Origin: Eledone cirrhosa
Lineage: Eukaryota
DNA length: 64,000 nucleotides
Assembly (NCBI GenBank): GCA_964016885.1
Contig: OZ024740.1
Coordinates: forward strand, 97,402,001 to 97,466,000
Direction of reading: 5' to 3'
Shown: positions 1,681 to 64,000 of the stretch, piece by piece
Layout of the letters: each line of letters starts with the position of its first letter
Numbering within the stretch: position 1 is the first letter of the stretch
Notes under the pieces: generated by a model
The model's input: only the letters and a program-made list of their open reading frames with translations
Database searches by the model: none
Told to the model about the DNA's origin: nothing
Translations under genes and position numbers: made by a program

Positions 1681-1733
1681 GTAAGTATGTATGTATACGT
1701 ACATACATATATGTATACAGACGTACAGTAGCA

Positions 1734-1785
<52 letters not shown>

Positions 1786-2237: not shown

Positions 2238-2285
<48 letters not shown>

Positions 2286-2451: not shown

Positions 2452-2496
2452 AACGATGTACTAGTTTCAAGCTTGTTAGCTATCATCAGCACCGTT
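2452..2496 (-). ncRNA. Type I hammerhead ribozyme (second unit of the 500-bp repeat)
   Basis: Identical to 1952-1996. Confidence 0.9.
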
Positions 2497-2881
2497 TACC
2501 CATCTGCCAGATAGTTGAACGTTCGAAAGTATATACTTTCCTTATGAAAATTAACGGCTGAGCAGCCTAATTTGCATATTGAGTGAGTTAAATCGGTCAG
2601 GCATACCGAAAACGATAAGTTGAAAAAAATGAAAACGAAAAACGAAATTTCATTTCTCACTCTTAGTATGGCACTTACTTAAATGTAAGTATGTATGTAT
2701 ACGTACATACATATATGCATAGAAGTATTCTCTGGCAATGAACGAACAACGTATTTTGAAATATCCAGTTCTGCGTTTACAGATTGACTTTGTTATTTTC
2801 AGAAGATCACGTTAAGGATGAAAGCAGCGATTCTTTGCTTAAACTTTAATCTGTTATTTTAATAAATATGTTATATATATA

Positions 2882-8996: not shown

Positions 8997-10944
8997 TATA
9001 TATTTTATATATATATATATATATATATTATATGCAAAAGTTCTATTTAAATTGCTGGGACACAACAAGTAAATATTTTTATAACTGATATAAAGCACTC
9101 GACAAGTATGTGGAGTAGATATACGATATTAACAAATGGAAACTATATTTATAAAACCATATTTATTTCATTATACATATTTCAAGGATACCAGACAAAA
9201 TACAATATATACCAGTTTTATATATAAACATTGACCTACCCTTTCAAAATGCGACCGTTACTTTTGGAAGACATCATGATAGTGGTTTGTTTATTTTAGT
9301 AAGTCGTAGTGTTAAGGATAAGTAAAAAGACGGAGAGAGAGAGAGAAACGTGGAGAAAAGAAAGGGAGAGATAAATAAAGAAAAAGAGGAAAGAAAAAAG
9401 AAAAAAGAAAAAAGAAAAAAGAAAAAAAAAGAAAAAAGAAAAAAGAAAAAAGAAAAAAGAAAAAAGAAAAAAGAAAAAAAGAAAAAAGAAAAAAGAAAAA
9501 AGAAAAAAGAAAAAAGAAAAAAGAACAAAGAAAAAAGAGAAAAGAAAAAAGAAAATAAAAAAAGAAAAAAAGAAAACAGGAAAACAACAGAGAGATATCA
9601 AACCACCAGACAGAGAGAAAAAACTCAAGAGAGAGAAATATAGAGATAGAGAGAGGGGGAGAGAACGAAAACCTTAAGTCATGTCATATTAAGTTGAGTT
9701 AACAATTGAGATGAAATGAATAAATAAAATTAGAAATATTAATATTCATGAATGGAATATACACATATAATATGAGAAATTAATCATTGTTTAATTATGA
9801 TTAGATATTTAGTTTAAAAATTGAGATCAATATATTAAAAATTGGAATTTAAACATCACAAAATATATATATTGCTAGAGAAATTACCTATCGTATAGCA
9901 CGTACATATAGGCAAAGATACATAAATATATATGTACACAGACACTCAGAAAATACACATTATATCTACTCCCGCATATAATATATACATACAAAGCATA
10001 AGTGATTTTTTTATTACTGCTATACATTTCTTGTTTTATTAAATAAAAATTCTTAGTATATATATATAAATATATAGGATTAACTTTCATGCATTTATGG
10101 CTGTTAAATTATGCATATCTGCAATCAAAACTGCATGGGTAAGCGTGTACATGTACACACACAATTTTTAGCTATACATATATAAATATGTGTGTGCATC
10201 TTCACCCAATTGGTAGACACGCGTCACTCATGCATATATACAGACAGACATATAATCATAAAAAAGCATATAACGCATGTATATGTATGTTAATACACAT
10301 ATATAGATACATAATCGTATAGAGATAAGTATACATCAATATATTACATAGTACAATTGAGTATATAAAATATAAAAGGATTATATTTTGGAAATATAAT
10401 TATATCAATATAACTTAAAAGACAAACGAATTCGACAAATATCAAAATATTCAAATATTTTAAAATATTATAGAATATTTATGTTAAAATAATATGTTTA
10501 ATAGATTTAGTATAGAAATTTATCTTACGTATATTTTAATCAAGATATTGAAAGGATAAACTTTTGAAAATTATGATAAGCTATAAAAACAAACCTAATG
10601 AAAAATAAATAAAATATTATATCAATATAACTTAAAAAACAAGGATTCTACAGTTATCAAAATATTAAAATATTTAAAAATATTATAGAATATTTTAAGC
10701 TAAAATAATATGTTTAATATATTTATTATAGAAATTTATCTTACGTATATTTTATTCGGGATATTGAAAGGATAAACTTTTCTAGAATAGTTTATTATAT
10801 TTATATTTATATTTATATTTAGGAAGAAAATTTATACTTGAGTACTTAACCAAAGAAAATGAAAAAGGTGAAGGAATCTAATGATTTATCGACAGGTTTT
10901 ATATACCAAATTACTTAATTAATTATACTACATTTTAAATTTAT

Positions 10945-13145
10945 ATTTATATTTAAACGTTAAGTTCAATCTATGTCTGCAGCAACTGAATAAATTATTC
11001 CTTAAATTAAGGGAATTTTTGGTCTTTAATATAAAGAATATTTCCTCTATACAAAGATCACAATTTTCTGAAGAGGAATTAAAAGGAGTAGCTTATGAAA
11101 TAATATTCCAAATCAGTGAATATTCAAAATTATCTCGTTTTAGGTGCCCTAATAGGCTAGATAGCGAAGTTGAAGATTTTTTGTTTGTATCTGTAAAATA
11201 ATTTTTCTGATTATTGAAGCGGGATTTAAATTCTGTAGAGGTAGAACAGACATAATTAAATGAATTTAAATTAGTTTTAACATTACAATTATAAACTACA
11301 TTTTTAGCTAAGCAGTTGTTATTTAACGGACAGTTGGATTTATTTCTACAGTTACAATTATTCGATTGAATATTGCTTGGGTTATTATTGGTATTTTGGT
11401 TAGGTTTTAAATTTCTATTATTAATTCTATTAATATTTTGTGCTAAATTTTTTGGGGAAGAATAAGTTAATTTTATAGTATGTCTATTAAAAATTGAGTA
11501 ATATTTATGTGTTCTAGGGAAGCGTTTGTCAAGAGCTTCAAAGAATAGTTTAGCAATAGGGGTTTTAATATTTAGTGAGAAAGGAGGAGCGAACCATAAT
11601 ATATTCCTAGTTCTATTTCTTTTTCGGCTTTCGGAATTATTGTAATGTTTTCTATTACAGTTGTTAAAAGTGTTACCATAATTAAAGTTGTTATTATTTT
11701 GGTTAGTTTGTATATTATTATTATTATCGATGTATTTAATTTTATTTCTATACCCAGCTCTACCTAACGCTTCGTTGTAATAATGCGCTTTTTCATCAAA
11801 TATATTCTTATTTGATGAAATTCTTGAAATTGGTTCTATTGTATTTTTAACGGATCTGGGGTGATTAGAGTTAAAATTGACATCCTTTAAGTTCTCATTT
11901 AGTTTGTGAAATGTATAATGAAGACATGTGTTGAGATATAGTGTTACATCAAGAAAATTTACTATTTTATGGGTATTCTCTATTTCTACTTTTAGATTAA
12001 GGTAATTAAAAAATTGTATAATTTGTTTTCTTTTTCTATTTAGTTCACAGCTATTATTTTCTATAAGTAAAAGCATGTCGTCACGATATAAGCCTCCGGT
12101 TACACCTGATATTTTTCTATGTAGAGAATTAATTATAAATAGGCCCACAAGGTCCGTTACCTGAGCTGAGTCTGAAGATCCCATAGTTGTGTCGAAATTA
12201 TTATTTCTATCTGCCCTCGTCCAGAGTTCGTTATTAAATTCTATTAATGTTTTCCGTGCCGATAATATAATGTGCATTTCATTGCTAGTTAGGTCTGTAT
12301 GTTTAAATGCGTAAGTTAGTGCCTTATTCAGTAGATTAGGAGTGATAGATGAGTAGTAGTTAGCAATATCCAACTGAATAATCTTATTATTATAGTTATA
12401 TTTAATTTCTTTAAACCAATCGATAACCTCACTAGTCCCTTTCCATAATTTTAAGTAAGATAAATTAGGTAATAATTTTATAATTTGTTGTATTACCCTG
12501 TCTAGAATATTTTTGCCAAGTTGTCCCAGGTCAGATTTGGATGGTGCAATTAATCTGACTGGTAAATCATTTTCAAAGTTTCTTTTATGATCCTTCATAT
12601 TGATCTTAGGTTTCCTAGGCATGAAAGGTTGTGTTTTATTCTCAATGTCTAATTCATGCATTATACAAGATGCATCTGTATTAAGTTTTTCAAGTTCATC
12701 CTTACTTGCTACCTTCTACTTTTTCCTTAGTTCTTTCAATATAAGGTCGTTATACATGTCCTTTTGTACTCCATAAAGCTTGTTAGTTTTGTCCGACTTC
12801 ACTAAAATTTTGTCTGTTTTCTCCAGGTTTTCAATATTATCCTTAATACATCTTAAGTAGTCCTGGCCTTTGAAGTTTCTCTTGAATTTGATGCCTTGGA
12901 TGATAGATACTATATCGTTTTCAAAATCCATTAGTAATTTGTTGGGGGTGGAATATTTTAGATTTGAAAATTTTGTCCAGATTTGAAACATTTTCATTTA
13001 GATTAGATTTATCAAAGTGGAAAGCACGCCACCTGATTCTTCTTATAAAAGAGTCTGATTTTTCTATTAATTGTTTAATAATATCTTTATTTCTAGGTAG
13101 AGGTATGTCTTTTAGAGAAGAAGAAGAGATCTTAAAGAATTCCAT
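10945..13145 (-). pseudogene. PLE RT + GIY-YIG endonuclease ORF, disrupted
   Basis: FIRRIRWRAFHF, KSDKT, LDIANYYSSI, MGSSDSAQV, GLYRDD, VNFLDVTL, SNHP, WFAPPF, CNCRNKSNCPL (CxCx5C), VVYNC..YVC, CDLCIEE..CCRH; frameshift near 12970, in-frame TAG at 12716, TAA at 11093. Confidence 0.92.
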
Positions 13146-13670
13146 TTTTTCAGTTATAATGTAAAGCGCTCAACAATATAGGAGCAGAATATATGCAAAA
13201 GTTCTATTTAAAGTTGTTGGGATACAACAAGCAAATATTTTTATAACTGATATAAAGCACTCGACAAATTTTTGGAGTCACTGTCCCCCTCTCTCTATAT
13301 AGTATTTCTCTCTCTTGAGTTTCTATTTCTGTATGATGACTTGATATCTCTCTGTTGCTTTCCTTTGTTTTTCTTATTCCTTTCTTTTCTTTCTTTTTTA
13401 TTTCCTCCTATCTTTATCTATCTCTTTCTTTTCTCCATACATTTCTCTCTCCGATATTTCTTCAGGTTTTCTTTCTTTCTCTTTTCTTTCTCTCTCTCTC
13501 TGTCTTTGTTCTTTTATCTTTTTTTCTCTTTCTTTCTCTCCGTCTTTTTCTAATTGTGCTTAACACTATGACTTATTATTTAAACAAATCACTATCCAGA
13601 CAGCCTCTAAAAGTAATGGTTGTATTTTAAAGGGTACGTCAAACCTATTTGTAAAACTGTTATATATTGT

Positions 13671-13733
13671 ATTTTGTCTGATGAAGGCATACCATAATTT
13701 AATGTGGTATCCCTGAAATATGTATAATGAAAT
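13671..13733 (+). ncRNA. Type I hammerhead in the inverted PLE pLTR
   Basis: AUUUUGU-CUGAUGA-AGG C AUACCA..UGGUAU C CCU-GAAA-UAUGUA-UA/AUGAAAU, overlapping AATAAA. Confidence 0.85.
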
Positions 13734-14001
13734 AAATATGGTTTTATAAATATAGTTTCCATTTATTAGTATCGTATATCTACTCCAAAAATTTGTCGAG
13801 TGCTTTATATCAGTTATAAAAATATTTACTTGTTGTATCCCAACAACTTTAAATAGAACTTTTGCATATATATATATTATATATATATTATATATATATT
13901 ATATATATATATATTATATATATATTATATATATATTATATATATATTATATATATATATATTATATATATATATATTATATATATATATCATATATATA
14001 T

Positions 14002-21114: not shown

Positions 21115-24100
21115 CTACAGGCGCATGATCAGAGTAGGCCCACTCACGCGGGCCATTCTCGCCACATTCACCCACCTTTCAGTAAATGTACTGGGGGGCA
21201 GCACTTCTCTCTCCACCCTCACCTTCCTTTCCAAGTGAAACTTGAAGAAGTTGATGAGGGATTGGCCGAAGAGAAAAGTGTCTGTCTTCAGTCCTTTCAA
21301 CCTGGTCCACCATGCAACCTCTTTCGCTACTGCCACCAGGCAGAGGAAAATTGCCTGCCCTTCCTGACCAAAAGAAGGCGGCGGGTCAATCTTCACTATG
21401 GACTCGGACGATAGCCGGATCCGTTCTACACGCGACAATAGCTGTTCGACATAACCCCACAAGTCAGCAATGCACGGACACTGGACGAGTGCGTGCAGAA
21501 CGGTTTCGTCGCTCTGCGCGCATCTCGGGCAGGTTCGTCTGACAGCACTTCCGTGCCTGTAGAGTTTATCCCGAACCGGCAGCGCCCCCCGGTAGCACTG
21601 CCAAGCGAGGGATTTCTGGAAGTTATCCATCGTCCCCGGCTCGAAAGTCCTCCGGAACATACTGGTCAGTTCTACTTCGTTGACGCCCAGAGCCTCTCCT
21701 AGTACGTCATCGCACTTGCCCTCCACTAATCCTCTATAGAAATCTTGAGTGGAAGTTCCACTGACCGCATTGCCCACCTTGCAGAGTGCAGTGAGCGCCT
21801 GGCAACATTCCAGATTCCAGTCGCCCAGTCTCGGTCTCTTCTTGACCCAGGACTGCAGCTCAGTCAAAGAGATGAGCTGCGGAAAGGCCCGTCTAACAAA
21901 CGGCGACCACACCTGTTCACCGTTTAGGCAAAATATCTGGAGATGTCGCAGCCTCAGCGCATGTCTGCGCATCATTAGCCACGGCATGCCCAGCCCTCCA
22001 CGAAGAGGGTGCTGGCAGCAGATGGACCGCCTCACCAACGGGACCCGTCCCCTCCACAAAAATTTGAAAAGGAGCCGTTCCAAATTGGCGAGGCGTGGAC
22101 GGGGGCAAGGCACGACGGTCAGGCGGTAGTAGATGACGGACGCGATGTACGCGTTCGCCACCTCCGCCCGCCCTTTCAGTGATAGCTTTCTCTCAGCCCA
22201 TTTCTGGGTGAGGTTGGCTATCCTGCTCGTCACCTCGTCCCAATTCTTATCCACCTGGAGGTCTGGTCCGAACCAAACCCCGAGCAACTTTACCGGTCCG
22301 TCTGTCCAGCGCCCAACGACGCTGTTGGACGGCATGGACTTGCCTCTCCAGGTGCCGAGCTGCAAGCCCACCGACTTTTCCGGGTTAAGTTTTGCTCCCG
22401 TCAACCTTTCATATTCCTCCAAATGGGTGCGGATCACCTCGATTTCCGAGGTGTCCGACACCATCACGGTGATGTCGTCCGCATAAGCGGACGCAGCCTT
22501 TCTACGTCCCGGTTCGAGCGGGATGCCCTGCAACAACTCCAGCTTCCGCAGTAGAGGCTCAAGAGTCAATACGTACAGAAGTGAGGAGAGAGGGCACCCT
22601 TGACGGACCGATCGAGAGATCTGAAACGGTTCCGAGAGGTGGCCATTAACTTTGACCACCGAGCGGATGCCGCTGTACATTGCAGCGATCCAGCTTCTGA
22701 AGACGGGGCCGAAGCCAGCCGCCTCGAGGACAGCCTCCAAGTACCGATGGTCGACCCTATCGAATGCTTTCGATTGATCTAAATTGATCAGAGCCCCACC
22801 GAAGCCAGGTTTGCACCCAACCCTCTCTATGATGTATCGCATGAGGTGGAGGTTGTCGTGTATGGACCTGGTCGGGATTGCGCAAGTTTGCGCCTCCCCA
22901 ACCAAATCTTTGACGACAAGCGCCAACCTTTTCGCTAACACCTTGGCCAAAATCTTAAACTCTGTGTTGAGCAGGGTTATGGGCCTGAAATTATCTAGTG
23001 TGTCCCTCTTGTTCTCGTCTTTCCTTATCAGCGTCACTACGCCACGGCTCACAGAACTGGGAATGCTCCCGTTCTGCTGCCAGTTGCAGTAGAGCGCTTC
23101 GAGGAGATCGGAGAACAAGTCTGGCATATTTACGTAAAGCTCGTAGGGCAGACCATCCAAACCGGGTGACTTGCGACTCGAGCAGCCGACAAGGGCGTCC
23201 TGAATTTCGGCTGATGTTATCGGCTCTTCGCAGCGCTCAGCGTCGGCCGTCGAGAGGCGTGGCAAGCCGTCGAGGTAGGGACTGAAGTCCGCCGCCGTCT
23301 CCGACTCACCCATCCTCCCGAACAATCGAGCAAAGTGCTGGCGAAAGGCCTCACACATCTGCTTGGAATCGCTCAGTTCGTGTCCATCTCGATCCGTCAA
23401 AGACCGAATTGTGGTTTTATTTCCACGCTGCGTCTCTGCAAAGCGAGCCCATCGGGCAGCTTTGGTTCCCTCGTTCCTCAGAGCACGCGCCTTAGCTCTG
23501 ACAATGCAACCTTCGTGTTTCGCATTGAAGAAATGGTCTAGTGCCATTCTCGCCGCTAGCACGTCTGTTGCAATGCCACTACAAATAGCCTCGTCTAACT
23601 TAGCTATCAGCCCCTCCTCTTTTCTATTTTTCTCTATTGCTACTTCTTTGCTAAATCCTATCGAGGTTGCTCTAATCTCTCTTTTGAGTGCCCCCCACCA
23701 CCTGTTGTTGACAACCCCCCCTGTCAACTTTTGCTTAACTAAGTTGTTGACCCGGTCCCTGTAAGCTTTACGTGCCGGAAACGACATGTTTAGCTTCCAG
23801 TAGCTAGGTCCTAACCTACGTGTCTTATCTAGGTCGACCATACAGATCACAAGCTTGTGATCTGAATAGGCAACCGTTTTAAAATGTGGACATCCTACAC
23901 TATTTCTATCTCTTTTCCTAATGAAAATCCTATCTATGTACGATCTAGATGACCCTATGCGATTGGTCCAGGTCCATACTGGCGCATTAGGGAAATCTAG
24001 TCGGTACCTGTCAGACAGTTGAAACTGGCTGATCAGGTACTTGAGGCTTTTGCACCCCCCGCTCCTATCAGATACTCCCACACAATCCCAGCGTGCTTCT

Positions 24101-24534
24101 AAGATGCCATTCCAATCCCCTATTAACAGTAAAGGGCGAGACGTAAGCAGAAAGTTTTCCAGGCGCCTAAAGAAGTCCGGCCGACCGGCCCCAGTAGGGG
24201 CGTAGACGGCCACCAGTCTAAAGGCACCACCTTCGCTATTGCTCACGTCCAGGACCACCAACTTTCCGTCAGGATCCCGGAAGATTGACCTTACCTCGAG
24301 ATCCAGACATTTCCTAAACAGCACAGCCACTCCACCTCCCATTCCCGGCCGACTAACAGATGCAAAGATCTGATAATCGTCGAAAATCGGCGCCAGTGCG
24401 CGTGTGTCGGAAATTCTGGTCTCGCTGATGGCAATTACATCTATTCCTAGTGACCTGAGGTCGTTGAGCAAGTGACCTTGCTTCCAGGGCGACCCCAGGC
24501 CACGAACATTTAAACTTCCTACTCTTATGGCCAT
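21115..24534 (-). CDS. LINE ORF2: APE endonuclease + reverse transcriptase + C-terminal CCHC
   Basis: 1139 aa; SLNVRGL, ISET, VYAP, GDWN, YIDRIF, SDH; KSPGLDG, FRPITLLN, LDQSKAFDRV, RQGCPLS, AYADD; CPRC..ETVLHALVQC. Confidence 0.97.
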   Translation of the reverse strand: MAIRVGSLNVRGLGSPWKQGHLLNDLRSLGIDVIAISETRISDTRALAPIFDDYQIFASVSRPGMGGGVAVLFRKCLDLEVRSIFRDPDGKLVVLDVSNSEGGAFRLVAVYAPTGAGRPDFFRRLENFLLTSRPLLLIGDWNGILEARWDCVGVSDRSGGCKSLKYLISQFQLSDRYRLDFPNAPVWTWTNRIGSSRSYIDRIFIRKRDRNSVGCPHFKTVAYSDHKLVICMVDLDKTRRLGPSYWKLNMSFPARKAYRDRVNNLVKQKLTGGVVNNRWWGALKREIRATSIGFSKEVAIEKNRKEEGLIAKLDEAICSGIATDVLAARMALDHFFNAKHEGCIVRAKARALRNEGTKAARWARFAETQRGNKTTIRSLTDRDGHELSDSKQMCEAFRQHFARLFGRMGESETAADFSPYLDGLPRLSTADAERCEEPITSAEIQDALVGCSSRKSPGLDGLPYELYVNMPDLFSDLLEALYCNWQQNGSIPSSVSRGVVTLIRKDENKRDTLDNFRPITLLNTEFKILAKVLAKRLALVVKDLVGEAQTCAIPTRSIHDNLHLMRYIIERVGCKPGFGGALINLDQSKAFDRVDHRYLEAVLEAAGFGPVFRSWIAAMYSGIRSVVKVNGHLSEPFQISRSVRQGCPLSSLLYVLTLEPLLRKLELLQGIPLEPGRRKAASAYADDITVMVSDTSEIEVIRTHLEEYERLTGAKLNPEKSVGLQLGTWRGKSMPSNSVVGRWTDGPVKLLGVWFGPDLQVDKNWDEVTSRIANLTQKWAERKLSLKGRAEVANAYIASVIYYRLTVVPCPRPRLANLERLLFKFLWRGRVPLVRRSICCQHPLRGGLGMPWLMMRRHALRLRHLQIFCLNGEQVWSPFVRRAFPQLISLTELQSWVKKRPRLGDWNLECCQALTALCKVGNAVSGTSTQDFYRGLVEGKCDDVLGEALGVNEVELTSMFRRTFEPGTMDNFQKSLAWQCYRGALPVRDKLYRHGSAVRRTCPRCAQSDETVLHALVQCPCIADLWGYVEQLLSRVERIRLSSESIVKIDPPPSFGQEGQAIFLCLVAVAKEVAWWTRLKGLKTDTFLFGQSLINFFKFHLERKVRVEREVLPPSTFTERWVNVARMARVSGPTLIMRL

Positions 24535-24563
24535 GCTGGCAGGATGAATGGGAGAGGAAAGGT

Positions 24564-26474
24564 TTACTTACCTTCCGGGGTCTTGTGAAGGTCGGGTGGT
24601 TCGACCTCCATGGTTTGTGGGGTTTCTTTTGGGAACCCCTTTAATAGTCTTGACGTGGGTTTTACGTTCGGGGTTCCCACATCCCGAGGAAAGCTCTTTC
24701 GAATTTCTTTGTATGAAGCGAGCGACATTCGCATCAGAAGCAAATTATCTGGTACGCGAAATGTGCTCGCTTCAAATGTTTCCCCGTCTTTTTCGATGTT
24801 TGTGCTTCGTGCTACATGGGCCATCAATTCCTTGTTGGCCCTTCTGGCAAGCACGAAGTTTTTAATGTTTTGTTGCTCGGGTTTTATTTGTTCGTGTGAT
24901 TGTGGTGGTGATAGCTTTGTTAGTGTTGTTTCTATTGTGTCTGCGTTTGTTGTGGGTGGGGTGTCTGTAGTTTCTGATGTTTGTGTGTCTATTTGTTCTT
25001 GTGTCTGTTTAGCTTGTTTGCGTTTGGGGGATTTTGGTGGTTGTGTTGGTGATGCTGTGGGGAAAATGTTTGTGTGGGTGGTGTGTGTATTTTTTTTTGT
25101 GGGGGTGTTTGTGCTTTGTGGATTTCTTTTTTTTTTGTGTTTTGTTTTTTGTATTTTGGGGGACTTTGGTTTTCCCTCATCTTCACTGCTGGAGGATGAG
25201 GGGTCTGTGGCTGTGAGCGTGTTTGTGTCTGAGTGAGTGTTTATGTTCTTGTTCGTGTGTGTATTTTGGGGGGGAGGGGGAATGGGAGAGCTTTCCTCGT
25301 TTCCCCCCTGGGTGTGCAATTTTGGTGGTTCCATTGTTGACGGTGTTGCTGGTGGTCCTTGTCCCGGCGTCGCCAGCAGTGGAATCTTTCGACCCCTTGC
25401 GCTTTTCGGCAGTTGAGGGCAGAAGGCTCGCAAGTGTGTCGTTTCCCCACAAAGGAAACAATGCGGCCTTTTGCCCTCAGTCATTATATGCAACACCCTC
25501 CCGTTTTGGAGGCGGATGTGGTCCGGGATTGTTTTTACGTTTTCGGGTCTGATTTGGAGCAGTATCTCCAGATCAACCCCGGACCAGTCGTCCCTGGCAG
25601 TTCTCGTTGCCTCTACCGGGACTGTATCCGTTCCTTCCACGATTACGCAACCCAGGAGCCACCACATATCAAGTCCTGGTGGAATCCTGGGAATGCGCAC
25701 ACGTGCTATTCGTTTTCCCATGTGGGAGGGGTACATTATGACCTTGCTGGTTTTGCAAGGGGTCATTGAATGCTTCACAGCGAGGGCTTCAGACTTGAAC
25801 AGCACCGAAACGGTGCCGTATTGCCTGCCCCTCTCTATGAAGTCTGTGTCCTCTCTGATGTATTTCAGTGCGGCTTCTATGTCAGCTTGGGCGATTATCG
25901 CTGCCCTCTTTGTCTCTACTGAGATGCATCTGAAATGCACCGTTCTTTTTTCCACTGCCTCAATGGCTTCTGCCGGGACAGTTAAGTTTGCCCAGGTCTG
26001 CTCTTGATTTATGATTTTCCAGGCCTGGGCCAACTTTTCCTCTCTGTTGGTTAAGTCGATGCTGTAGCATGGTCTCCTTTTAGCCGCTGCCACAGCAGCG
26101 AAAGTGTTCTTGTTGGTGTTGTCACTGTTGTTGTTCTTGTTGGTGTTGCTGCTGCTATTGCTGTTGTTGTTCTCCCCTGTGTCGTGGTTACCCTCTGTGC
26201 TGTTGGCCTTGTTGGTGCTGTTGCTGTCGCTACTATTACTCTCTGTGCTGTTCGTTTTGTTGGTGCTCTCGCTATTACCACCTTCTGCGCTGTTCGGCTT
26301 GTTGGTGTTGGTGTTGTCGCTGTTACCACCTTCCGCGCCGCTCGGCCCGTTGGTGCTGGCACTGTCGCTGCTCACATTCGTGCTGGTGGCGCTCCTCGCC
26401 TCACCTCTCCTCTCAACGCTCAAGTCGCCGTTGCACGACAGCAGACCCGCCTCTAGGGGGCGTGGCTCCGCCAT
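24564..26474 (-). CDS. LINE ORF1 (gag-like; CCHC zinc knuckle; S/N- and P/T/K-rich low-complexity flanks)
   Basis: 636 aa open; CFLCGETTHLRAFC knuckle; ends 29 nt upstream of the ORF2 ATG. Confidence 0.9.
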   Translation of the reverse strand: MAEPRPLEAGLLSCNGDLSVERRGEARSATSTNVSSDSASTNGPSGAEGGNSDNTNTNKPNSAEGGNSESTNKTNSTESNSSDSNSTNKANSTEGNHDTGENNNSNSSSNTNKNNNSDNTNKNTFAAVAAAKRRPCYSIDLTNREEKLAQAWKIINQEQTWANLTVPAEAIEAVEKRTVHFRCISVETKRAAIIAQADIEAALKYIREDTDFIERGRQYGTVSVLFKSEALAVKHSMTPCKTSKVIMYPSHMGKRIARVRIPRIPPGLDMWWLLGCVIVEGTDTVPVEATRTARDDWSGVDLEILLQIRPENVKTIPDHIRLQNGRVLHIMTEGKRPHCFLCGETTHLRAFCPQLPKSARGRKIPLLATPGQGPPATPSTMEPPKLHTQGGNEESSPIPPPPQNTHTNKNINTHSDTNTLTATDPSSSSSEDEGKPKSPKIQKTKHKKKRNPQSTNTPTKKNTHTTHTNIFPTASPTQPPKSPKRKQAKQTQEQIDTQTSETTDTPPTTNADTIETTLTKLSPPQSHEQIKPEQQNIKNFVLARRANKELMAHVARSTNIEKDGETFEASTFRVPDNLLLMRMSLASYKEIRKSFPRDVGTPNVKPTSRLLKGFPKETPQTMEVEPPDLHKTPEGK

Positions 26475-26688
26475 GTTTTTTTGAGAAAAAAATTATTATT
26501 TTTTTTTTTCAAAATAAAGTTCAAATATTTGGGCCAAAAGGCCCAAATATTATGAGTTATTCCTTCACAGGATACAAATTAATGTCTTATAATGCTTCAG
26601 CGGTACAAAAAATAAACAATTCTCTACAATTAATCCTCAAAAAATTGCTTACTCACGGAGCTTCAAAAAACGTACATCCACTTTCGTC

Positions 26689-40622: not shown

Positions 40623-43600
40623 GGCGACCTACGTAGTAAATCGTATCATCATGAGCTCCGCAAAGGTTTGTTATTTTCAGTTGTTTAAAATTGCCATTTA
40701 TGGAAAATTTTTATTGTTAACTGTATATAAGTGCACATACATTGATTTCTGTAAAAGACACTCAAAAATAATAGGGCCTTGAGCCCAAATTTAAACTTTT
40801 TATAATTATCAAACAAAACAAACTTCTTTGAAAAATCATGGACGACTCAGAGTCACTCCTTCCTCACACACTAACACCTCACACAGACACCACCATTGTA
40901 AATATTACTACGTTTGCCAACAATAAAAATATAAGCAATAGCAATATTTTAAATTTGTCTCAGCCAGACATTCATTTCCCGCCATTACCAATGACTGCAG
41001 GTGTTAAAGCCACCACCCCACCATCACCACCACAGCGAAAACCCCCACCACCACTACCACAGCGACAACCCCCATCACCACCACCAAAACCAACGCCTGT
41101 GAAGGATTTTCCACTCCCCGGCTTATCGTAACTGGAGACAGATTGTGACGACGAGGAGTGGGAAACGGTATCAGGAAAAAAGAAAAAACAAACCAAAAAA
41201 GAAAAAATTCTCTTCCTTCCCCCTCCAAAAACAAAATACAGAGGGAAACAAATAAATTATCAAACAAAAAAGTTAGGACAGATATGCCACTATCCACACC
41301 AGCATCACCAACCCCATCACCACAAACACCAACACCATCACCATCATTAACCCCAACACCACCATCACCAACACCACAACAGTTACCAAAAAGCGTAACA
41401 GAAACAAACTCACAACAAACGCAACAAAACAAAACAACCAAAACGATACACACTACACAGCATTAAATTTGAACAACAACCAATCATTACACTACATGCA
41501 ACACAACACCTGCATCACAGAAAAAGACTACACAACAACCCAACAGTTCACACCACCTCCACACATACAAATCAATCGCATCACACATAAAACGTACACG
41601 ACACTAAAACAAAACTTCCCCAAAGACATCGGAGGCTACCGACAAACACTCTCCAGGAGGATTTATAAGGACATCCTTCCGGAGGAGGCCACAAGCAGTG
41701 AAAAGGATGGACAAACCATCCTTCCTCTACGAGAAGTAAGGTAAGTGGTCTTTCCCATCTTTTCCACTCCATTTCAACATGACCTCATTCAGAATAGGCA
41801 GCATAAATGCGCGTAGCTTGGGGTAGTCATGGAAGCAAGGCCACCTGCTCAACGACCTCAGGTCACTAAACATAGATGTAGTGGCCATCAGCGAGACCAG
41901 AATCTCCGAAGCAGGGGCTTTCGCACCGATCTTCGACGGCTACGATGTGTACGCATCTCCCAGCCGTCCGGGATCGGGAGGAGGAGTTGATGTGATTTTT
42001 CGGAGAGTTTTGGATCTCGCCATACGGGCCATCTTCTTGGACCCAGAAGGTAAGTTGGTGGTGCTAGACGTGACCAGCGGAGAAGGGCAAGATTTCAGGC
42101 TAGTGGCCGTCTATGCCTCGACAGGAGCAGGGCGGCCTGATTTATTCCGGCGTCTGGAGACCTTTCTTGGAACGTCCCGCTCTTTAGTGTTAGTGGGCGA
42201 CTGGAACGGGATTTTAGATGCACGCTGGGACTGTGTGGGATTAGCGGATAGGGAAGGAGGGTGCAAGATCCTCACCAATCTGCTCAGGCGTTTTGAACTG
42301 TCTGACAGGTACGGATTGCATTTCCCGAATGTGCCAATGTGGATTGGACAAATCGCATAGGGTCATCCAGATCATATCTAGATAGAGTATTTTGTAGAGA
42401 AATAGATAGGTCTAGCATAGGTTGTCCACAATTCAAGATAGTCAGCTACACGGACCACAAATTCGTGATCTGTATGCTTGACTTAGATAGCCTTCATAGA
42501 CGAGGACCCGGCTACTGGAAGCTAAACGCGACCTTACCAGCGCGCATGGCCTACAGAGATCGAATTAGCGAACTAGTTAAGCGGGCATTGACGGGGGCCA
42601 TCGTCAACAACAAGTGGTAGTTTGCTCTGAAAAGAGCAATTAGAATAGAGTCCATTAGGTTTAGTAAGGCTTTAGCAATAGAGAAAAATAGAGCAGAGGG
42701 AGAATTAGTTAGAAAATTAGACGAGGTGCTTAGCAAAGGCATCGCGACCGACGTACTTGCGGCGAAATTGGCCCTTGACCAATTCTTCAATGCAAAGCAC
42801 GAAGGCTGCGTTGTCAGAGCTAATGTGCGTGCTCTCAGACACGAGGGAACGAAAGCCGTTCAATGGGGACGAAAGCCGTTCAATGGGCCCGAATGGCGGA
42901 GGAGCGTCGTGGCAACAAAGCCACGATCCGGTCTATGGTGGACCACGACGGGCGCATGCTACTCGATCCCGGGCAAATGTGTGAAGATTTTCAGCGACAC
43001 TTCGCTCAGTTGTTCGGGGGCAGCGGCGGGCCGGATAGAAAGATGGATTAGTATCTACCTCGACGGACTGCCGCGGCTCTCGGCCTCTGAGGCGGAGTGT
43101 TGATAAAAGCCGATAACAGCCGCAGAAGTACGGGGAGCAATGACTAGCTGCACAAGGGGTAAATCGCCTGGTTTGGATAGTCTGCCCTATGAACTTTACG
43201 TACAGATGCCAGACTTGTTCGGAGGCCTCTTGGCGGACGTCTACTGCAACTGGCAACAGAACGGGATAATTCCCAGCTCTATAAGCCAGGGAGCTGTGGT
43301 GCTTCTGAGAAAGGATCCGAACAAGGGGGATAACATAGATAATTTTAGGCCCATAACACTGCTAAACACAGAGTTTAAGATTTTGGCCAAGGTGCTAGCA
43401 AAGAGGTTGGCGCTTGTCGTTGGTGGTCTGGTGGGAGAGGCGCAGACATGCGCCATTCCCAACAGATCCATCCACGACAACCTCCACCTCATGCGATACA
43501 TCGTAGAGAGGGTAGCTAGGGAACCTGGCACGGGTGGGTCCTTGATCAATTTAGATCAGTCGAAAGCTTTCGATAGGGTCGACCATCATTACCTAGCGGC

Positions 43601-45455
43601 AGCCCTGAGGGCGGCTGGCTTTGGGCCCGTCTTCAGAGGCTGGATCGCTGCGATGCACAGCGACATCTGCTCTGTCGTGAGAGTGAACGGTCACCTTTCG
43701 GAACCGTTCAACATCATGCGCTCGTTCCGCCAAGGATGTCCCCCCCCGTCCCTCTTGTACGTATTGACTCTCGAGCCATTACTGCACAAACTGGAGACTT
43801 TGAGGGGGGTCCCGCGCGAACAAGGATGCGGAAGATCCGTGTCATCATATGCGGACGATGTCACCGTAGTGGTGTCGAATGTCAAACACATCGAGACGAT
43901 CGGCATTACACTAAGAGAGTACGAAGCGGTGACAGGAGCAATGATCAACCAGGAAAAGTCAGTGGGCCTGCAGCTCGGCACCTGGATAGGCAGGTCCATG
44001 CCGTCCAACAGCGTCGTCGGGCGCTGGACGGACGGACCAGTTAAATTGCTCGGGGTCTGGTTCGGTGCGGATCTCCAGACGGACAAAAACTGGGATAAGG
44101 TGACGAATAGGGTGGCTTCTCTCATCCAGAAATGGGCAGAGAGGAAGCTATCCCTGAAAGGTCGAGCGGAGGTGGCTAACGCGTATATCGCGTCCGTTAT
44201 CTACTACCGCCTGACCGTCGTACCTTGTCCTAAGCCCCGCCTGACTGCGCTGGAGCGTTTGCTCTTTCGCTTTTTGTGGAAGGGACGCGCTCTGATGGTC
44301 AGCGGTCCATCTGCTGTCAACACCCGCTATATGGAGGGTTGGGAATGCCGTGGCTGATGATGCGCAGACACGCGCTCAGGCTACGAGATCTCCACCTCTT
44401 CCTCGACGGTGATCAGGTGTGGTCTCCGTTTGCTAGACGCGTCTTTCCCCAGCTCTTCTCCTTGACGGAGCTGCAGTCTTGGGTCAAGCGAAGACCGAGA
44501 GGGAGCGCTTGGAGACTGGAATGTCTTCAGGCGCTCACAGCCCTCGACCAATCGGGCAATGTGATCGGTGGAAATTCCACCTTGGCGTTCTATAGAGTAT
44601 TAGTGGAGGGGAAGAGCGACGACGTACTTGGGGAAACTCTAGGCGTCGACGAAAATCAACTAGCCAATCTCTTCGGAAGAACTTTCGGGCCGGGGCCTAT
44701 GGACAACTTCCAGAAATCCCTGGCCTGGCAGTGCTACCGAGGAGCTTTGCCAGTTCGGGATAAACCCTACAATCATGGAGGTGCCGTCAGCCGGGCATGT
44801 CCGAGATGCGCGCAGGGCGACGAAAACGTCCTGCACGCACTCGTCCAGTGTCCGAGCATTGACATGTGGGTTTATGTCGAACACCTGCTGTCGCGTGTAG
44901 GACGGATCCAGCTATCAGCAGGGTCCATCGTGAGGATTGCCCCGCCCTCCTCCTTTAGCCGGGAAGGGCAGGCAGTTTTTATCTGTCTGGTGGTCATGGC
45001 GAAAGAGATAGTATGGTGGACACGTTTGAAAGGGCTGAAGACGAGCACTTACCTCTTCGGTGATGCCCTGATTAACATTTTCAAATTTCATTTGAAAAAG
45101 AAAATCAGGTTAGAGAGGGAAGTGCTCTCTTCCCAGCATTTTGTTGAAAGATGGGTGAGAGAGGCAAGTATGGCCCGAATGAATGGGCCTTCTCTGAATA
45201 TGTGTCTGTAAATTAAAGGTGGAAAACTGGGAGAGGGCACTTGCCCTGGTGATCAGGGTCACTGTGGTCTTTTAATGGGCTTTCTCCACAAATGTCCCTC
45301 GGAAGTCTCCCCCCTATTGGGGAATTTTTCTTTGTTATTTTATTACATCCTCTGTTTTCTTTTACACGCAGAAATGCCCATTTGTACCGTCCTGTATTGT
45401 CCTGTACTGTCCTTAATGTCTACTTTATGTAAACCCTTGTGGTTAATAAAGAAAA

Positions 45456-58282: not shown

Positions 58283-59033
58283 AAATATAAATTTAGCGAG
58301 AATTGCATTTCGGCGCGTAGAAATTGGCGAAACGCAACTTCTGTGTTGTGCAGACAAGCGCTCCATGGATATGAAGATACCAGAGCTATAAACATAAGTT
58401 AAAATGGTCATACAAACTGAGACGATGGTTAAGAAGCCATTAACCACCTTAGCCAAAAAAGCGAACAAGCTAAACGGGTCAAACAAAATAAGATATGATT
58501 GAAATAGTTACCCAGACTCTCGGGGGAGATGGAATACTCCGATATTTGGGTTTCTGCAACACCTAAATCAATAATACTGTCTGCTTATAAAAAAATAAGC
58601 TTTTGGTATAATGATCGGACAAGGCATCGCTTTCTCAACAGGCATTTTGCTCTTCGTGTGCCAGAATCTCACAGGTTATGAAAGCACATGTGAGGTGCTA
58701 AGGGGAGGAAACCTCTATTTTGGCCAGTGAATTGAGCATGTATAGTTATTGCGAAACATTTGCAAAAACAGCACAAGACGAATTAAGCTCTCGACCGAGT
58801 TGTTTTTAAAATAAACTTAAGCGATTGATCAGTCAATAGAGTTAACTAAAAAGCCAAATAAAATTAACTGGTTAATCGCTTGACTTGGGAGATTAATTAA
58901 TACAAATATAAATTTAGCGAGAATCGCATTTCGGCGGGTAGAAATTGGTGAAACGCAACTTCTGTATTGTGCAAACAAGCGCTCCATGGATATGAAGATA
59001 CCAGAGCTATAAACATAAGTTAAAATGGTCATA
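58283..59033. repeat. Element with 130-bp terminal direct repeats (period 621 bp)
   Basis: 58283-58412 matches 58904-59033; flanked by (TA)n. Confidence 0.8.
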
Positions 59034-59510
59034 TATATAATATATATATATATTATATATAATATAATATATCATAAATTGAGTATTAAAATAAATGTAG
59101 AAAGATTGCTTCAATTTCCATTATAATATGCATTCATATCTTCAAACCCATGAGATTCTGTTTTAGATCACACAGCCTGGCATTATCACCATCATTTAAT
59201 GGCCATTTTCAACACTAGCTTGGGTTAGGTGAGCAGATCCATTGTAAGATAAGCCAGGTCGGAGAATGGTGTTTGGCTCACACAAACCGATTTTGGCTTA
59301 GAAGTGAGGCCGAACTAGACAAGTGGGAGAGATGCTATACAGAGAATTACCTTTCCAACCCATGCAAACAAGGAACAACAGTCGTAATATGATGAGGATG
59401 ATGATGGTGATGATGATATATTTCAGAGTGTAAGAAAGAAATACAGATAGGGAGTCAGAAAGATATATATAAATAATGAAATAAACATATATATATATAT
59501 ATATATATAT

Positions 59511-62500
59511 TGGAATAAATGCTCTGAAATAGCGATATATATGTGAATATAGACATAGAATATTCGAAAATATTCTGTATGTTTATAATAAACATTTTGA
59601 AGACCTAATCGCTATAGAATAGAATACGTCACGTATTACAATTAGATTCTCGATAAAAGCAAGGGAAGTAATCTACGCGTTTCATTCTTGTTAGAAATCA
59701 TCAGGACTACATATCCAGTGCTTTTATCGAGAATGACACAGCTAGAGACTTATAGAATACTTAGCTGTGTACAGGAACTGGTTTGAAAGAGCGGTTGCCG
59801 GTCCGGCAGAAATTAGAAATTGGAATAAATGCTCTGAAATAGCGATATATATGTGAATATAGACATAGAATATTCGAAAATATTCTGTATGTTTATAATA
59901 AACATTTTGAAGACCTAATCGCTATAGAATAGAATACGTCACGTATTACAATTAGATTCACGATAAAAGCAAGGGAAGTAATCTACGCGTTTCATTCTTG
60001 TTAGAAATCATCAGGACTACATATCCAGTGCTTTTATCGAGAATGACACAGCTAGAGACTTATAGAATACTTAGCTGTGTACAGGAACTGGTTTGAAAGA
60101 GCGGTTGCCGGTCCGGCAGAAATTAGAAATTGGAATAAATGCTCTGAAATAGCGATATATATGTGAATATAGACATAGAATATTCGAAAATATTCTGTAT
60201 GTTTATAATAAACATTTTGAAGACCTAATCGCTATAGAATAGAATACGTCACGTATTACAATTAGATTCTCGATAAAAGCAAGGGAAGTAATCTACGCGT
60301 TTCATTCTTGTTAGAAATCATCAGGACTACATATCCAGTGCTTTTATCGAGAATGACACAGCTAGAGACTTATAGAATACTTAGCTGTGTACAGGAACTG
60401 GTTTGAAAGAGCGGTTGCCGGTCCGGCAGAAATTAGAAATTGGAATAAATGCTCTGAAATAGCGATATATATGTGAATATAGACATAGAATATTCGAAAA
60501 TATTCTGTATGTTTATAATAAACATTTTGAAGACCTAATCGCTATAGAATAGAATACGTCACGTATTACAATTAGATTCTCGATAAAAGCAAGGGAAGTA
60601 ATCTACGCGTTTCATTCTTGTTAGAAATCATCAGGACTACATATCCAGTGCTTTTATCGAGAATGACACAGCTAGAGACTTATAGAATACTTAGCTGTGT
60701 ACAGGAACTGGTTTGAAAGAGCGGTTGCCGGTCCGGCAGAAATTAGAAATTGGAATAAATGCTCTGAAATAGCGATATATATGTGAATATAGACATAGAA
60801 TATTCGAAAATATTCTGTATGTTTATAATAAACATTTTGAAGACCTAATCGCTATAGAATAGAATACGTCACGTATTACAATTAGATTCTCGATAAAAGC
60901 AAGGGAAGTAATCTACGCGTTTCATTCTTGTTAGAAATCATCAGGACTACATATCCAGTGCTTTTATCGAGAATGACACAGCTAGAGACTTATAGAATAC
61001 TTAGCTGTGTACAGGAACTGGTTTGAAAGAGCGGTTGCCGGTCCGGCAGAAATTAGAAATTGGAATAAATGCTCTGAAATAGCGATATATATGTGAATAT
61101 AGACATAGAATATTCGAAAATATTCTGTATGTTTATAATAAACATTTTGAAGACCTAATCGCTATAGAATAGAATACGTCACGTATTACAATTAGATTCT
61201 CGATAAAAGCAAGGGAAGTAATCTACGCGTTTCATTCTTGTTAGAAATCATCAGGACTACATATCCAGTGCTTTTATCGAGAATGACACAGCTAGAGACT
61301 TATAGAATACTTAGCTGTGTACAGGAACTGGTTTGAAAGAGCGGTTGCCGGTCCGGCAGAAATTAGAAATTGGAATAAATGCTCTGAAATAGCGATATAT
61401 ATGTGAATATAGACATAGAATATTCGAAAATATTCTGTATGTTTATAATTAATATTTTGAAGACCTAATCGCTATAGAATAGAATACGTCACGTATTACA
61501 ATTAGATTCTCGATAAAAGCAAGGGAAGTAATCTACGCGTTTCATTCTTGTTAGAAATCATCAGGACTACATATCCAGTGCTTTTATCGAGAATGACACA
61601 GCTAGAGACTTATAGAATACTTAGCTGTGTACAGGAACTGGTTTGAAAGACCGGTTGCCGGTCCGGCAGAAATTAGAAATTGGAATAAATGCTCTGAAAT
61701 AGCGATATATATGTGAATATAGACATAGAATATTCGAAAATATTCTGTATGTTTATAATAAACATTTTGAAGACCTAATCGCTATAGAATAGAATACGTC
61801 ACGTATTACAATTAGATTCTCGATAAAAGCAAGGGAAGTAATCTACGCGTTTCATTCTTGTTAGAAATCATCAGGACTACATATCCAGTGCTTTTATCGA
61901 GAATGACACAGCTAGAGACTTATAGAATACTTAGCTGTGTACAGGAACTGGTTTGAAAGAGCGGTTGCCGGTCCGGCAGAAATTAGAAATTGGAATAAAT
62001 GCTCTGAAATAGCGATATATATGTGAATATAGACATAGAATATTCGAAAATATTCTGTATGTTTATAATTAATATTTTGAAGACCTAATCGCTATAGAAT
62101 AGAATACGTCACGTATTACAATTAGATTCTCGATAAAAGCAAGGGAAGTAATCTACGCGTTTCATTCTTGTTAGAAATCATCAGGACTACATATCCAGTG
62201 CTTTTATCGAGAATGACACAGCTAGAGACTTATAGAATACTTAGCTGTGTACAGGAACTGGTTTGAAAGAGCGGTTGCCGGTCCGGCAGAAATTAGAAAT
62301 TGGAATAAATGCTCTGAAATAGCGATATATATGTGAATATAGACATAGAATATTCGAAAATATTCTGTATGTTTATAATAAACATTTTGAAGACCTAATC
62401 GCTATAGAATAGAATACGTCACGTATTACAATTAGATTCTCGATAAAAGCAAGGGAAGTAATCTACGCGTTTCATTCTTGTTAGAAATCATCAGGACTAC

Positions 62501-64000
62501 ATATCCAGTGCTTTTATCGAGAATGACACAGCTAGAGACTTATAGAATACTTAGCTGTGTACAGGAACTGGTTTGAAAGAGCGGTTGCCGGTCCGGCAGA
62601 AATTAGAAATTGGAATAAATGCTCTGAAATAGCGATATATATGTGAATATAGACATAGAATATTCGAAAATATTCTGTATGTTTATAATAAACATTTTGA
62701 AGACCTAATCGCTATAGAATAGAATACGTCACGTATTACAATTAGATTCTCGATAAAAGCAAGGGAAGTAATCTACGCGTTTCATTCTTGTTAGAAATCA
62801 TCAGGACTACATATCCAGTGCTTTTATCGAGAATGACACAGCTAGAGACTTATAGAATACTTAGCTGTGTACAGGAACTGGTTTGAAAGAGCGGTTGCCG
62901 GTCCGGCAGAAATTAGAAATTGGAATAAATGCTCTGAAATAGCGATATATATGTGAATATAGACATAGAATATTCGAAAATATTCTGTATGTTTATAATA
63001 AACATTTTGAAGACCTAATCGCTATAGAATAGAATACGTCACGTATTACAATTAGATTCTCGATAAAAGCAAGGGAAGTAATCTACGCGTTTCATTCTTG
63101 TTAGAAATCATCAGGACTACATATCCAGTGCTTTTATCGAGAATGACACAGCTAGAGACTTATAGAATACTTAGCTGTGTACAGGAACTGGTTTGAAAGA
63201 GCGGTTGCCGGTCCGGCAGAAATTAGAAATTGGAATAAATGCTCTGAAATAGCGATATATATGTGAATATAGACATAGAACATTCGAAAATATTCTGTAT
63301 GTTTATAATAAACATTTTGAAGACCTAATCGCTATAGAATAGAATACGTCACGTATTACAATTAGATTCTCGATAAAAGCAAGGGAAGTAATCTACGCGT
63401 TTCATTCTTGTTAGAAATCATCAGGACTACATATCCAGTGCTTTTATCGAGAATGACACAGCTAGAGACTTATAGAATACTTAGCTGTGTACAGGAACTG
63501 GTTTGAAAGAGCGGTTGCCGGTCCGGCAGAAATTAGAAATTGGAATAAATGCTCTGAAATAGCGATATATATGTGAATATAGACATAGAATATTCGAAAA
63601 TATTCTGTATGTTTATAATAAACATTTTGAAGACCTAATCGCTATAGAATAGAATACGTCACGTATTACAATTAGATTCTCGATAAAAGCAAGGGAAGTA
63701 ATCTACGCGTTTCATTCTTGTTAGAAATCATCAGGACTACATATCCAGTGCTTTTATCGAGAATGACACAGCTAGAGACTTATAGAATACTTAGCTGTGT
63801 ACAGGAACTGGTTTGAAAGAGCGGTTGCCGGTCCGGCAGAAATTAGAAATTGGAATAAATGCTCTGAAATAGCGATATATATGTGAATATAGACATAGAA
63901 TATTCGAAAATATTCTGTATGTTTATAATAAACATTTTGAAGACCTAATCGCTATAGAATAGAATACGTCACGTATTACAATTAGATTCTCGATAAAAGC
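59511..64000 (-). repeat. 310-bp tandem array (14 full units plus a partial, runs off the window), one hammerhead per unit; non-LTR retrozyme-like
   Basis: Units start at 59511+310k and are almost identical; no ORF in the track; the array abuts (TA)n. Confidence 0.95.
59668..59710 (-). ncRNA. Type I hammerhead ribozyme; repeated at +310k up to 63698-63740 (14 copies)
   Basis: GUAGUC-CUGAUGA-U UUCU AACA AGAA U-GAAA-CGCG-UA/GAUUAC; stem I extended by GGA/UCC and a perfect 16-bp helix (59646-59661 with 59719-59734). Confidence 0.93.

What the first reader, a model, noticed from the sequence alone, without database searches (positions are those of the whole stretch)
59511..64000. Homogeneous 310-bp tandem array of hammerhead-ribozyme units: candidate retrozyme/circRNA-generating locus
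Seen: at least 14.5 nearly identical units. On the minus strand each has a complete type I hammerhead: CUGAUGA and GAAA cores, GUA cleavage between 59674 and 59673, and palindromic stem III ACGCGU. Stem I is closed by a 16-bp helix. The array has no ORF and ends in (TA)n, like the neighbouring PLEs. Known: small tandem repeats with type I HHRs (newt satellite 2, Schistosoma Sm-alpha, metazoan non-LTR retrozymes) are transcribed, self-cleave to monomers and circularise, and are proposed to use PLE RT. Minimal palindromic stem III HHRs act as dimers, which a tandem array allows. Inference: this is a young non-autonomous retrozyme family giving 310-nt linear or circular RNAs that start GAUUACUUCCC and end GAAACGCGUA>p.
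Basis: partly seen in the sequence, partly recalled or inferred. Interest (0 to 1): 0.92.

Follow-up and report, generated by a model that had tools for sequence, protein, structure and literature searches.

The report
Penelope-mobilised hammerhead ribozyme repeat family
This is one copy of a young, very abundant family of small self-cutting-RNA repeats (a known kind, retrozymes); its insertions carry the fingerprints of Penelope-type retrotransposons and look as if each array was written in one event from a single RNA, a step that had been proposed but, in my searches, not shown.

Summary
Observation confirmed: 310-bp units, each with a type I hammerhead on the minus strand, cleavage 59674/59673. 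The fold is backed by covariation in 21 related ribozymes from this genome, including a C3-G8/U3-A8 core swap. The array runs on to 15 kb and turns round: 44 full minus units, a junction, about 3 plus units. The family has about 19,000 ribozyme copies in roughly 2,000 dispersed insertions. Insertions are head-to-head, (TA)n-[arm]-[arm]-(TA)n, one arm ending at unit position 165-170, the other at 130-139 (53 of 53 end pairs): the Penelope-like-element (PLE) signature of inverted copy plus tail. Both arms usually share one haplotype (42 of 46), rare variants are fixed through single insertions, and cleavage sites are read through without error. So arrays are mostly born multimeric from one continuous template, probably a circular monomer; two loci point to linear multimers instead. 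This window's array, the longest seen, also grew in place. Cleavage, expression and circles are untested; the partner PLE was not identified. Verdict: new member of a known kind (non-LTR retrozyme, non-autonomous PLE), with unusually clear mechanistic footprints.

The parts
59509..64000 (-). Tailed (T) arm of a two-armed insertion: 310-bp hammerhead units; continues beyond the window to G000:C1:97475587, then an inverted arm of about 3 units ends at G000:C1:97476480
59487..59508 (.). (TA)n target microsatellite at the outer end
59509..59543 (-). PLE-type 'tail' (unit 131-165): present on this arm, absent on the other arm, which ends at unit 130-139; the two ends are the inferred reverse-transcription start sites
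59528..59615 (-). Stem-loop module (unit about 59-146) conserved in older sister subfamilies and holding the short-end site; inferred RT-binding/initiation element
59646..59734 (-). First complete type I hammerhead with extended stem I: outer helix 59734-59719 with 59661-59646; stem I 59710-59705 with 59673-59668; repeats every 310 bp
59698..59704 (-). Core CUGAUGA (C3...G8 pair; position 7 varies U/A/C among haplotypes)
59684..59697 (-). Stem II and loop 2; U.U at the base in this haplotype, A-U in the 287A haplotype
59674..59683 (-). GAAA, palindromic minimal stem III (ACGCGU, 59680-59675) and GUA triplet; predicted cut between 59674 and 59673
61450..62073 (-). Two units with the linked 81A/84A variant, found in 9 units of this array and nowhere else in the genome: marker of growth in place after insertion

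Best explanation
A non-autonomous Penelope-like element of the non-LTR retrozyme kind. (1) Arrays are transcribed on the ribozyme strand (inferred). (2) Neighbouring hammerheads pair through the palindromic stem III and cut to 310-nt monomers, which are ligated to circles (inferred from the class; fold supported by covariation). (3) An endonuclease-bearing PLE protein supplied in trans cuts both strands in (TA)n; each DNA end primes on the RNA at one of two fixed internal sites, unit 165(-170) and 130-139, 130-165 nt downstream of the ribozyme cut (fixed ends and one-of-each rule shown; enzyme inferred). (4) Each RT runs through the cleavage sites for 0.4 to more than 25 units; the two cDNAs join head-to-head by 0-6 nt microhomology or short filler (shown as product). 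(5) The template is usually one haplotype and covalently continuous: most likely a monomer circle (about 55%), otherwise an uncut multimer. (6) Some arrays, this one included, later grow by DNA recombination (private variant shown; recombination inferred). PLE-type insertion about 90%.
For: 19,121 core copies, control 1; 1,046 tailed and 1,253 short ends, controls 0. 53 of 53 divergent end pairs are one tailed + one short, none alike; 10 of 10 among loci found by the ribozyme alone; 14 of 20 'unpaired' tailed ends also had a short-ended arm in view. Same anatomy is described for EN+ PLEs (PMC8557442; PMC3846280), two internal RT starts and cutting of both strands were shown in vitro (PMC11167929), and a coding PLE of this genome shows it too (L208). 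Arms share the majority haplotype in 42 of 46 insertions, chance about 12%; 39 of 47 insertions of 4 or more units have no variant confined to a subset of units; units differ 0.082% from their own insertion's haplotype. 145C is fixed through both arms on two backgrounds (L086, L172), with no other multi-unit array of either haplotype among all 25 genome hits. 7 of 674 read-throughs of the cut site deviate, the background rate. Ribozyme fold: 87.2% paired against 76.5% shuffled (0 of 500) and 37-51% slid; 22 of 32 pairs change on both sides; pair 3-8 is C-G in 8, U-A in 13, broken in 0.
Against: No cleavage, RNA or circle data. No autonomous PLE with sequence homology to the unit among 4 families tested. 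L071 switches haplotype after two units in both arms and L092 in one arm, which a single monomer circle cannot give. The window's own array is mosaic with a 27-unit repeat pattern and a private variant. One tailed+tailed locus (L169, within a larger local fold-back), one chimera with two tails (L110), single-armed loci (L041, L093, L101, L103) and one doubly inverted locus (L047). Source arrays missing from the assembly could mimic 'private' variants. 39 of the 63 parsed insertions were chosen as tailed+short pairs, so that tally is not independent. All end statistics come from one contig.
Confidence: 0.8

Rival explanations
1. Same PLE machinery, but the template is mostly an uncut linear multimer transcribed from a source array; the ribozyme and circles are side matters for mobility.
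For: L071 mirrors a haplotype switch from both outer ends (8 of 54 testable variant-unit cases mirrored, all L071); L092 and L038b fit priming at different units of one multimer. In vitro a PLE used unprocessed RNA and did not need cleavage (PMC11167929). Stem II of the commonest haplotypes is weak; 8 of 9 Xenopus dimers did not cleave (bioRxiv 10.64898/2026.07.22.740005).
Against: New variants become fixed in every unit of both arms, 22 haplotypes among 46 insertions, which needs a one-unit bottleneck; the catalytic core is kept by covariation, which needs selection on cutting.
Confidence: 0.3
2. Short PLE-type insertions (one or two units) that expand and homogenise afterwards by unequal crossover and gene conversion, as for ordinary minisatellites.
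For: The window's array shows growth in place; recurring subset variants in L038b, L040, L055. This is the scenario discussed in bioRxiv 10.64898/2026.07.22.740005.
Against: 100 of 126 arms exceed 475 bp and 44 of 126 reach five units at 0.082% internal divergence; where in-place spread is seen it stays partial and in one arm; fixed variants cover both inverted arms.
Confidence: 0.1
3. The second arm is a fold-back (self-primed) copy of the first cDNA or of an antisense RNA, as proposed for rotifer Penelope, not a second priming from the target.
For: Proposal in PMC3846280 (passage); shared haplotypes fit any copying of one molecule; L100 and L110 have palindromic centres.
Against: Fold-back predicts matching phases at the centre: 5 of 52 resolved junctions lie within 15 nt, about 5 expected by chance (my count). 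Either arm can be the longer (tailed arm longer in 38 of 63), so neither is a sub-copy of the other.
Confidence: 0.07
4. A host-used source of regulatory circular RNA at this locus.
For: Retrozyme circles are abundant in other animals (PMC7229834).
Against: Near-identical, recent, dispersed copies; nothing singles out this locus; covariation is explained by selection for mobility.
Confidence: 0.03

Closest known systems
Metazoan non-LTR retrozymes (Cervera and de la Pena 2020, PMC7229834; parts 2-4 of 6 read, supplement unreadable): coral, mussel, axolotl HHR_Amex1/2, newt satellite 2
   Same: 150-450-bp tandem units with type I hammerhead, low GC, no ORF, thousands of copies, palindromic minimal stem III; U.U at the base of stem II as in HHR_Amex2
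   Different: There expression, cleavage and circles were shown and PLE mobilisation only proposed; the main text has no 'inverted' and no cephalopod. Here the insertion anatomy is in view and the RNA work is missing.
Xenopus retrozymes as non-autonomous PLE derivatives (Li, Clavereau, Pollet 2026, bioRxiv 10.64898/2026.07.22.740005; parts 1-3 of 5 read, supplements closed)
   Same: Retrozymes tied to PLE pseudo-LTRs
   Different: Their link is sequence homology and co-occurrence; arrays are discussed as local expansion by unequal crossover; no 'tail', no inverted arms, no molluscs in the text. Here no pLTR homology was found, but arrays look born multimeric.
Endonuclease-bearing PLEs (Penelope/Poseidon, Neptune, Nematis, Naiad, Hydra; PMC8557442 and PMC3846280, passages; Poseidon of Anolis in vitro, PMC11167929, parts 1-2 of 4)
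   Same: 5' truncation, partial tandems, inverted 5'-truncated copy, 30-40-bp tail on one end, (TA)n or AT-rich target, hammerhead shortly upstream of two internal RT starts
   Different: No ORF; the whole element is pLTR-sized and repeated up to 45 times; the tail rule here is near-strict (one per insertion) rather than optional.
Non-autonomous Chlamys PLEs such as MRC1 (PMC8557442, passage)
   Same: Non-coding, multicopy head-to-tail insertions moved by a PLE
   Different: Those lack canonical hammerheads and resemble their partner at the 3' end.

Membership tests
Type I hammerhead ribozyme | Core CUGANGA, GAAA, NUH and three helices with open stem I | tested here: met
   stem III is one pair plus palindromic loop
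Type I hammerhead ribozyme | Paired base of stem II (G10.1-C11.1 is canonical, recalled) | tested here: not met
   U.U in the window haplotype, A-U in 287A haplotypes; U.U also in the cleaving axolotl HHR_Amex2
Type I hammerhead ribozyme | Self-cleavage; loop 1-loop 2 contact | not testable with these tools
   needs transcription assays
Rfam hammerhead families (Hammerhead_1, HH9, HH10) | Score above gathering threshold | tested here: not met
   HH9 19.2 of 52 bits, others no hit
Non-LTR retrozyme | 150-450-bp tandem units, each with a type I hammerhead, GC under 50% | tested here: met
Non-LTR retrozyme | No coding capacity, no LTR structure | tested here: met
Non-LTR retrozyme | Many dispersed genomic copies | tested here: met
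Non-LTR retrozyme | Target-site duplication longer than 4 bp when present | tested here: inconclusive
   flanks are (TA)n; no duplication could be told from the microsatellite
Non-LTR retrozyme | Expressed as linear and circular monomers | not testable with these tools
   no RNA holder listed; only contigs of unknown kind
EN+ Penelope-like element insertion | Inverted 5'-truncated copy, head-to-head | tested here: met
   66 of 71 parsed stretches simple two-armed
EN+ Penelope-like element insertion | 30-40-bp tail on one end | tested here: met
   26-40 nt; 53 of 53 pairs
EN+ Penelope-like element insertion | Microsatellite or AT-rich target | tested here: met
   (TA)n of 8 nt or more on both sides in 50 of 63, on one side in 61 of 63 (partly selected by the end patterns); also at loci found by the ribozyme alone
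Autonomous PLE | ORF with RT and GIY-YIG endonuclease | tested here: not met
   none in 71 parsed stretches of the family
Non-autonomous derivative of a named PLE family | Homology to the pLTR of an autonomous PLE of the genome | tested here: inconclusive
   none for 4 families; other families not sampled; one chimera of a sister unit with the L207/L208 family

The most novel reading that the evidence does not exclude
The family is a genomic record of rolling-circle target-primed reverse transcription: a PLE protein dimer holds one circular ribozyme RNA, primes both cut ends of a (TA)n target at two fixed sites about 30 nt apart, and writes two clonal, opposed multimer arms in one event. This would be direct support for circRNA as the retrotransposition template of animal retrozymes and would explain the PLE inverted-copy-plus-tail anatomy as one site per strand.
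Probability: 0.45. Interest if true: 0.78.

Novelty: new member of a known kind. Interest (0 to 1): 0.55.

Why it matters
How PLEs make their tandem/inverted insertions and tails, and whether retrozyme circles are the template for new arrays, are stated as open in PMC8557442, PMC11167929 and PMC7229834. A very young family with about 2,000 insertions, two fixed start sites, a near-strict one-tail rule and haplotype-marked units lets those models be tested by counting, and gives a 310-nt RNA with predicted start sites for an in vitro assay. It also shows a route by which satellite arrays arise in one step. The class itself is not new.

Tried and rejected
DNA search of the own genome with the unit returned nothing because common words are skipped; patterns were used instead. 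Rfam does not recognise the ribozyme. No RNA holder listed; four runs laid were contigs of unknown kind, three giving one 340-nt contig (310+30), which a tandem array and a circle both give, so no evidence on expression. Partner search: the window's PLE family, 30 loci; 30 GIY-YIG loci; 5 long-frame loci of 16 wanted: matches were either inserted sister units or (TA)n. Pfam gave no useful family for the PLE frames; 150 representatives were all near the same PLE type. Run-off at cut 5' ends: not supported; 5' ends spread over the unit (chi-square p 0.07); short arms stop at unit 303-3 in 6 of 63, mostly just past the cut, tailed arms in none, a weak post-hoc excess. L1-style twin priming (one arm stopping at the other's start): 8 of 52 tailed arms stop at 120-145, about 4 expected, inconclusive (my count). 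No Pol III A/B box or octamer in the unit. No TSD resolvable. Free folding does not give the active monomer core (about 13 kcal/mol worse for two ribozymes); this fits dimer dependence but proves nothing. No earlier scan findings. PMC5785218 is not held. Literature searches for the anatomy in retrozymes or for a cephalopod family found nothing; most subscription papers and the two key supplements were not visible and may bear on the novelty claim.
Full report
Numbering. Unit position 1 is the base after the predicted ribozyme cut (window 59673, minus strand); window coordinate = 59674 minus position for the first unit. The window is G000:C1:97402001-97466000 of a 3.0-Gb genome in 1,796 contigs. 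Its repeat landscape looked cephalopod-like to me; that is a recalled impression, not a test.

1. Observation. Tandem Repeats Finder gives period 310, 14.5 copies, 99%. Fourteen minus-strand cores are complete and only 7 substitutions occur. Stem I, the 16-bp outer helix, the palindrome ACGCGU and the GUA site at 59674/59673 are as described. The descriptor hit 0 of 3000 shuffles. Rfam gives no hit at threshold and HH9 at 19.2 of 52 bits. The longest ATG frame is 30 aa.

2. The locus is larger and turns round. With 40 kb of neighbouring DNA the array has 44 full minus units between two partial ones, a junction (unit 37 to unit 176, 1 nt overlap), then 2 full and 2 partial plus units; both outer ends lie in (TA)n, the left at unit 165, the right at 139. 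At 14,972 bp it is the longest of 63 insertions measured; the median is 2,450 bp.

3. The family. The exact 43-nt ribozyme occurs 4,177 times, a 15-nt core shared by the haplotypes 19,121 times with control 1: about 5.9 Mb, and at a mean of 9.9 units roughly 2,000 insertions (estimate). Exact end signatures occur 1,046 times (tailed, T) and 1,253 times (short, S), controls 0. Of the listed ends I used 80 of 100 T and 100 of 100 S (the shared range of contig C1). They form 53 divergent pairs under 30 kb: 29 T-S, 24 S-T, none T-T or S-S. Of 20 unpaired T ends, 14 had an S arm in view, 2 a second arm running out of view, 4 none, and none led into a PLE frame. In all, 66 of 71 parsed stretches were simple two-armed; the 63 with both ends in view are all T+S, but 39 of these were picked as such. 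T ends fall at 165 in 60 and at about 170 in 3; S ends at 130-139. Centre junctions fall anywhere in the unit with 0-6 nt overlap or short filler (52 T+S junctions resolved of 63). Exceptions: L169, T+T inside a larger local fold-back that also mirrors its flank; L047, doubly inverted.

4. This is the PLE signature. EN+ PLE insertions are 5'-truncated partial tandems with an inverted truncated copy, a 30-40-bp tail often on one end only, and a bias for (TA)n (PMC8557442, passages; PMC3846280, passages). A purified Poseidon protein cuts both strands at AT-rich DNA and starts at two internal RNA sites that define the tail, downstream of the hammerhead, and does not need ribozyme cutting (PMC11167929, parts 1-2 of 4). 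A coding PLE of this genome (L208) has the same two-armed, one-tail form in (TA)n.

5. What the template was. Both arms carry the same majority haplotype in 42 of 46 insertions against about 12% by chance, with 22 haplotypes seen; two of the four misses are single-unit private changes. Units differ 0.082% from their own insertion's haplotype (133 changes, 521 units) and 39 of 47 insertions with 4 or more units have no variant limited to a subset. The 145C variant has 25 genome hits: 9 fixed through both arms of L086 (with 295G), 9 through L172 (alone), and 7 in six other loci as lone units, on other backgrounds or in very short inserts. 88T has 46 hits in 5 loci, four of them runs at unit spacing (only L077 parsed). 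Read-through of the cut site is as exact as the rest: 7 of 674 deviate over 13 nt. Together: a one-unit bottleneck and a continuous template, which a monomer circle explains most simply (inference). Against: L071 has two units of one haplotype at both outer ends and another inside; L092 switches in one arm; these need a linear multimer. Source arrays absent from the assembly could also mimic private variants. The window's array is itself mosaic: 81A/84A in 9 of 44 units and nowhere else in the genome, with a pattern recurring at 27 units, so it grew after insertion.

6. The ribozyme is under selection. Haplotype changes keep the fold: position 7 U/A/C, 287A closing stem II, 276G giving G.U, 277A with 2G. 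Older sister subfamilies of 313-322 bp (5,263 and 1,434 hits for two exclusion patterns) share the tail module and the same two ends. In 21 ribozymes 87.2% of cells pair (shuffled 76.5%, 0 of 500; slid 37-51%), 22 of 32 pairs change on both sides, and the core pair 3-8 is C-G in 8 and U-A in 13, the swap reported for Schistosoma PLE hammerheads (PMC4209133, part 1 and passages). The structure was drawn from the window's sequence and the sequences are related, so the controls are lenient; 'further pair types' did not exceed shuffles.

7. Partner. The window's PLE family (11093-13140, 91-95% identical copies) shows no pLTR homology to the unit. The genome holds CxxC-type C-terminal-endonuclease PLEs (Neptune/Nematis-like by the motif), some with open frames of 844-1,096 aa; none matched beyond (TA)n. 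Their ends share a terminal AAT before (TA)n, and one has a U3-A8 hammerhead with palindromic loop and GUA. L110 joins a sister unit to 31 nt and an inverted 280-bp tailed end of the L207/L208 family: a template switch or a later deletion, one case, a lead only.

8. RNA. No RNA holder was listed; the runs laid say nothing on expression. Cutting, transcripts and circles rest on the class (PMC7229834, parts 2-4 of 6).

9. Comparison and novelty. It works like, and by every testable feature is, a non-LTR retrozyme; it inserts like an EN+ PLE but is not an autonomous one. The retrozyme-PLE link is in print by homology (bioRxiv 10.64898/2026.07.22.740005, parts 1-3 of 5) and the circle-as-template idea as a hypothesis. 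I found no paper describing two-armed, one-tail, clonal retrozyme insertions, but supplements and subscription papers were not visible.

Noticed in passing
window 1675-2721 (cores on minus strand at 1989 and 2489): Second retrozyme-like family: 500-bp unit, two copies, hammerhead with palindromic CUAG loop and GUA site, between (TA)n; another copy in L105:1467-1557.
   Followed up: partly
window 10660-13960, minus: Decayed PLE (RT + GIY-YIG, 540-aa open part at 11093-12715); abundant family, 150 scored hits at 91-95% identity; hammerhead-like motif with a long stem II at 13678-13734 on the opposite strand.
   Followed up: partly
L105:2100-2920, L107-L136: Older sister retrozyme subfamilies (313-322 bp) with the same tail module and ends, many with the U3-A8 core; successive waves of one lineage.
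   Followed up: yes
L110:about 1500-2100: Chimeric insertion: a sister retrozyme unit joined to the 3' end of the L207/L208 coding PLE family; both ends tailed.
   Followed up: partly
L206:274-3561; L204; L205; L207; L208; L002:7094-9962: CxxC-type PLE families, some with long open frames (1,096, 938, 844 aa), in (TA)n; candidate sources of RT. One older copy lies 6.6 kb past the end of this array.
   Followed up: partly
L169:560-4200: Tailed+tailed copy sharing its junction with an insertion 2.8 kb away, with mirrored (TA)-rich flanks: local fold-back duplication or assembly artefact.
   Followed up: partly
L040:2598-2869: 272 bp of unrelated GC-rich sequence captured at the centre junction; origin not found.
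   Followed up: no
L132:2420-2980; L117:1708-1860; L108:2582-2679; L004:2044-2330: Further hammerhead-bearing repeats (about 470-bp period in L132; opposed pair in L117 with the same CUGAUGAUUUCUAA start as this family).
   Followed up: no
window 21115-26492 and 41827-45211: Two non-LTR retrotransposons with endonuclease-RT frames; the first has open frames of 642 and 1,150 aa.
   Followed up: no
window 58283-59035: Short element with a duplicated end of about 140 bp between (TA)n tracts, also seen in L101; possibly another non-autonomous PLE-type family.
   Followed up: no
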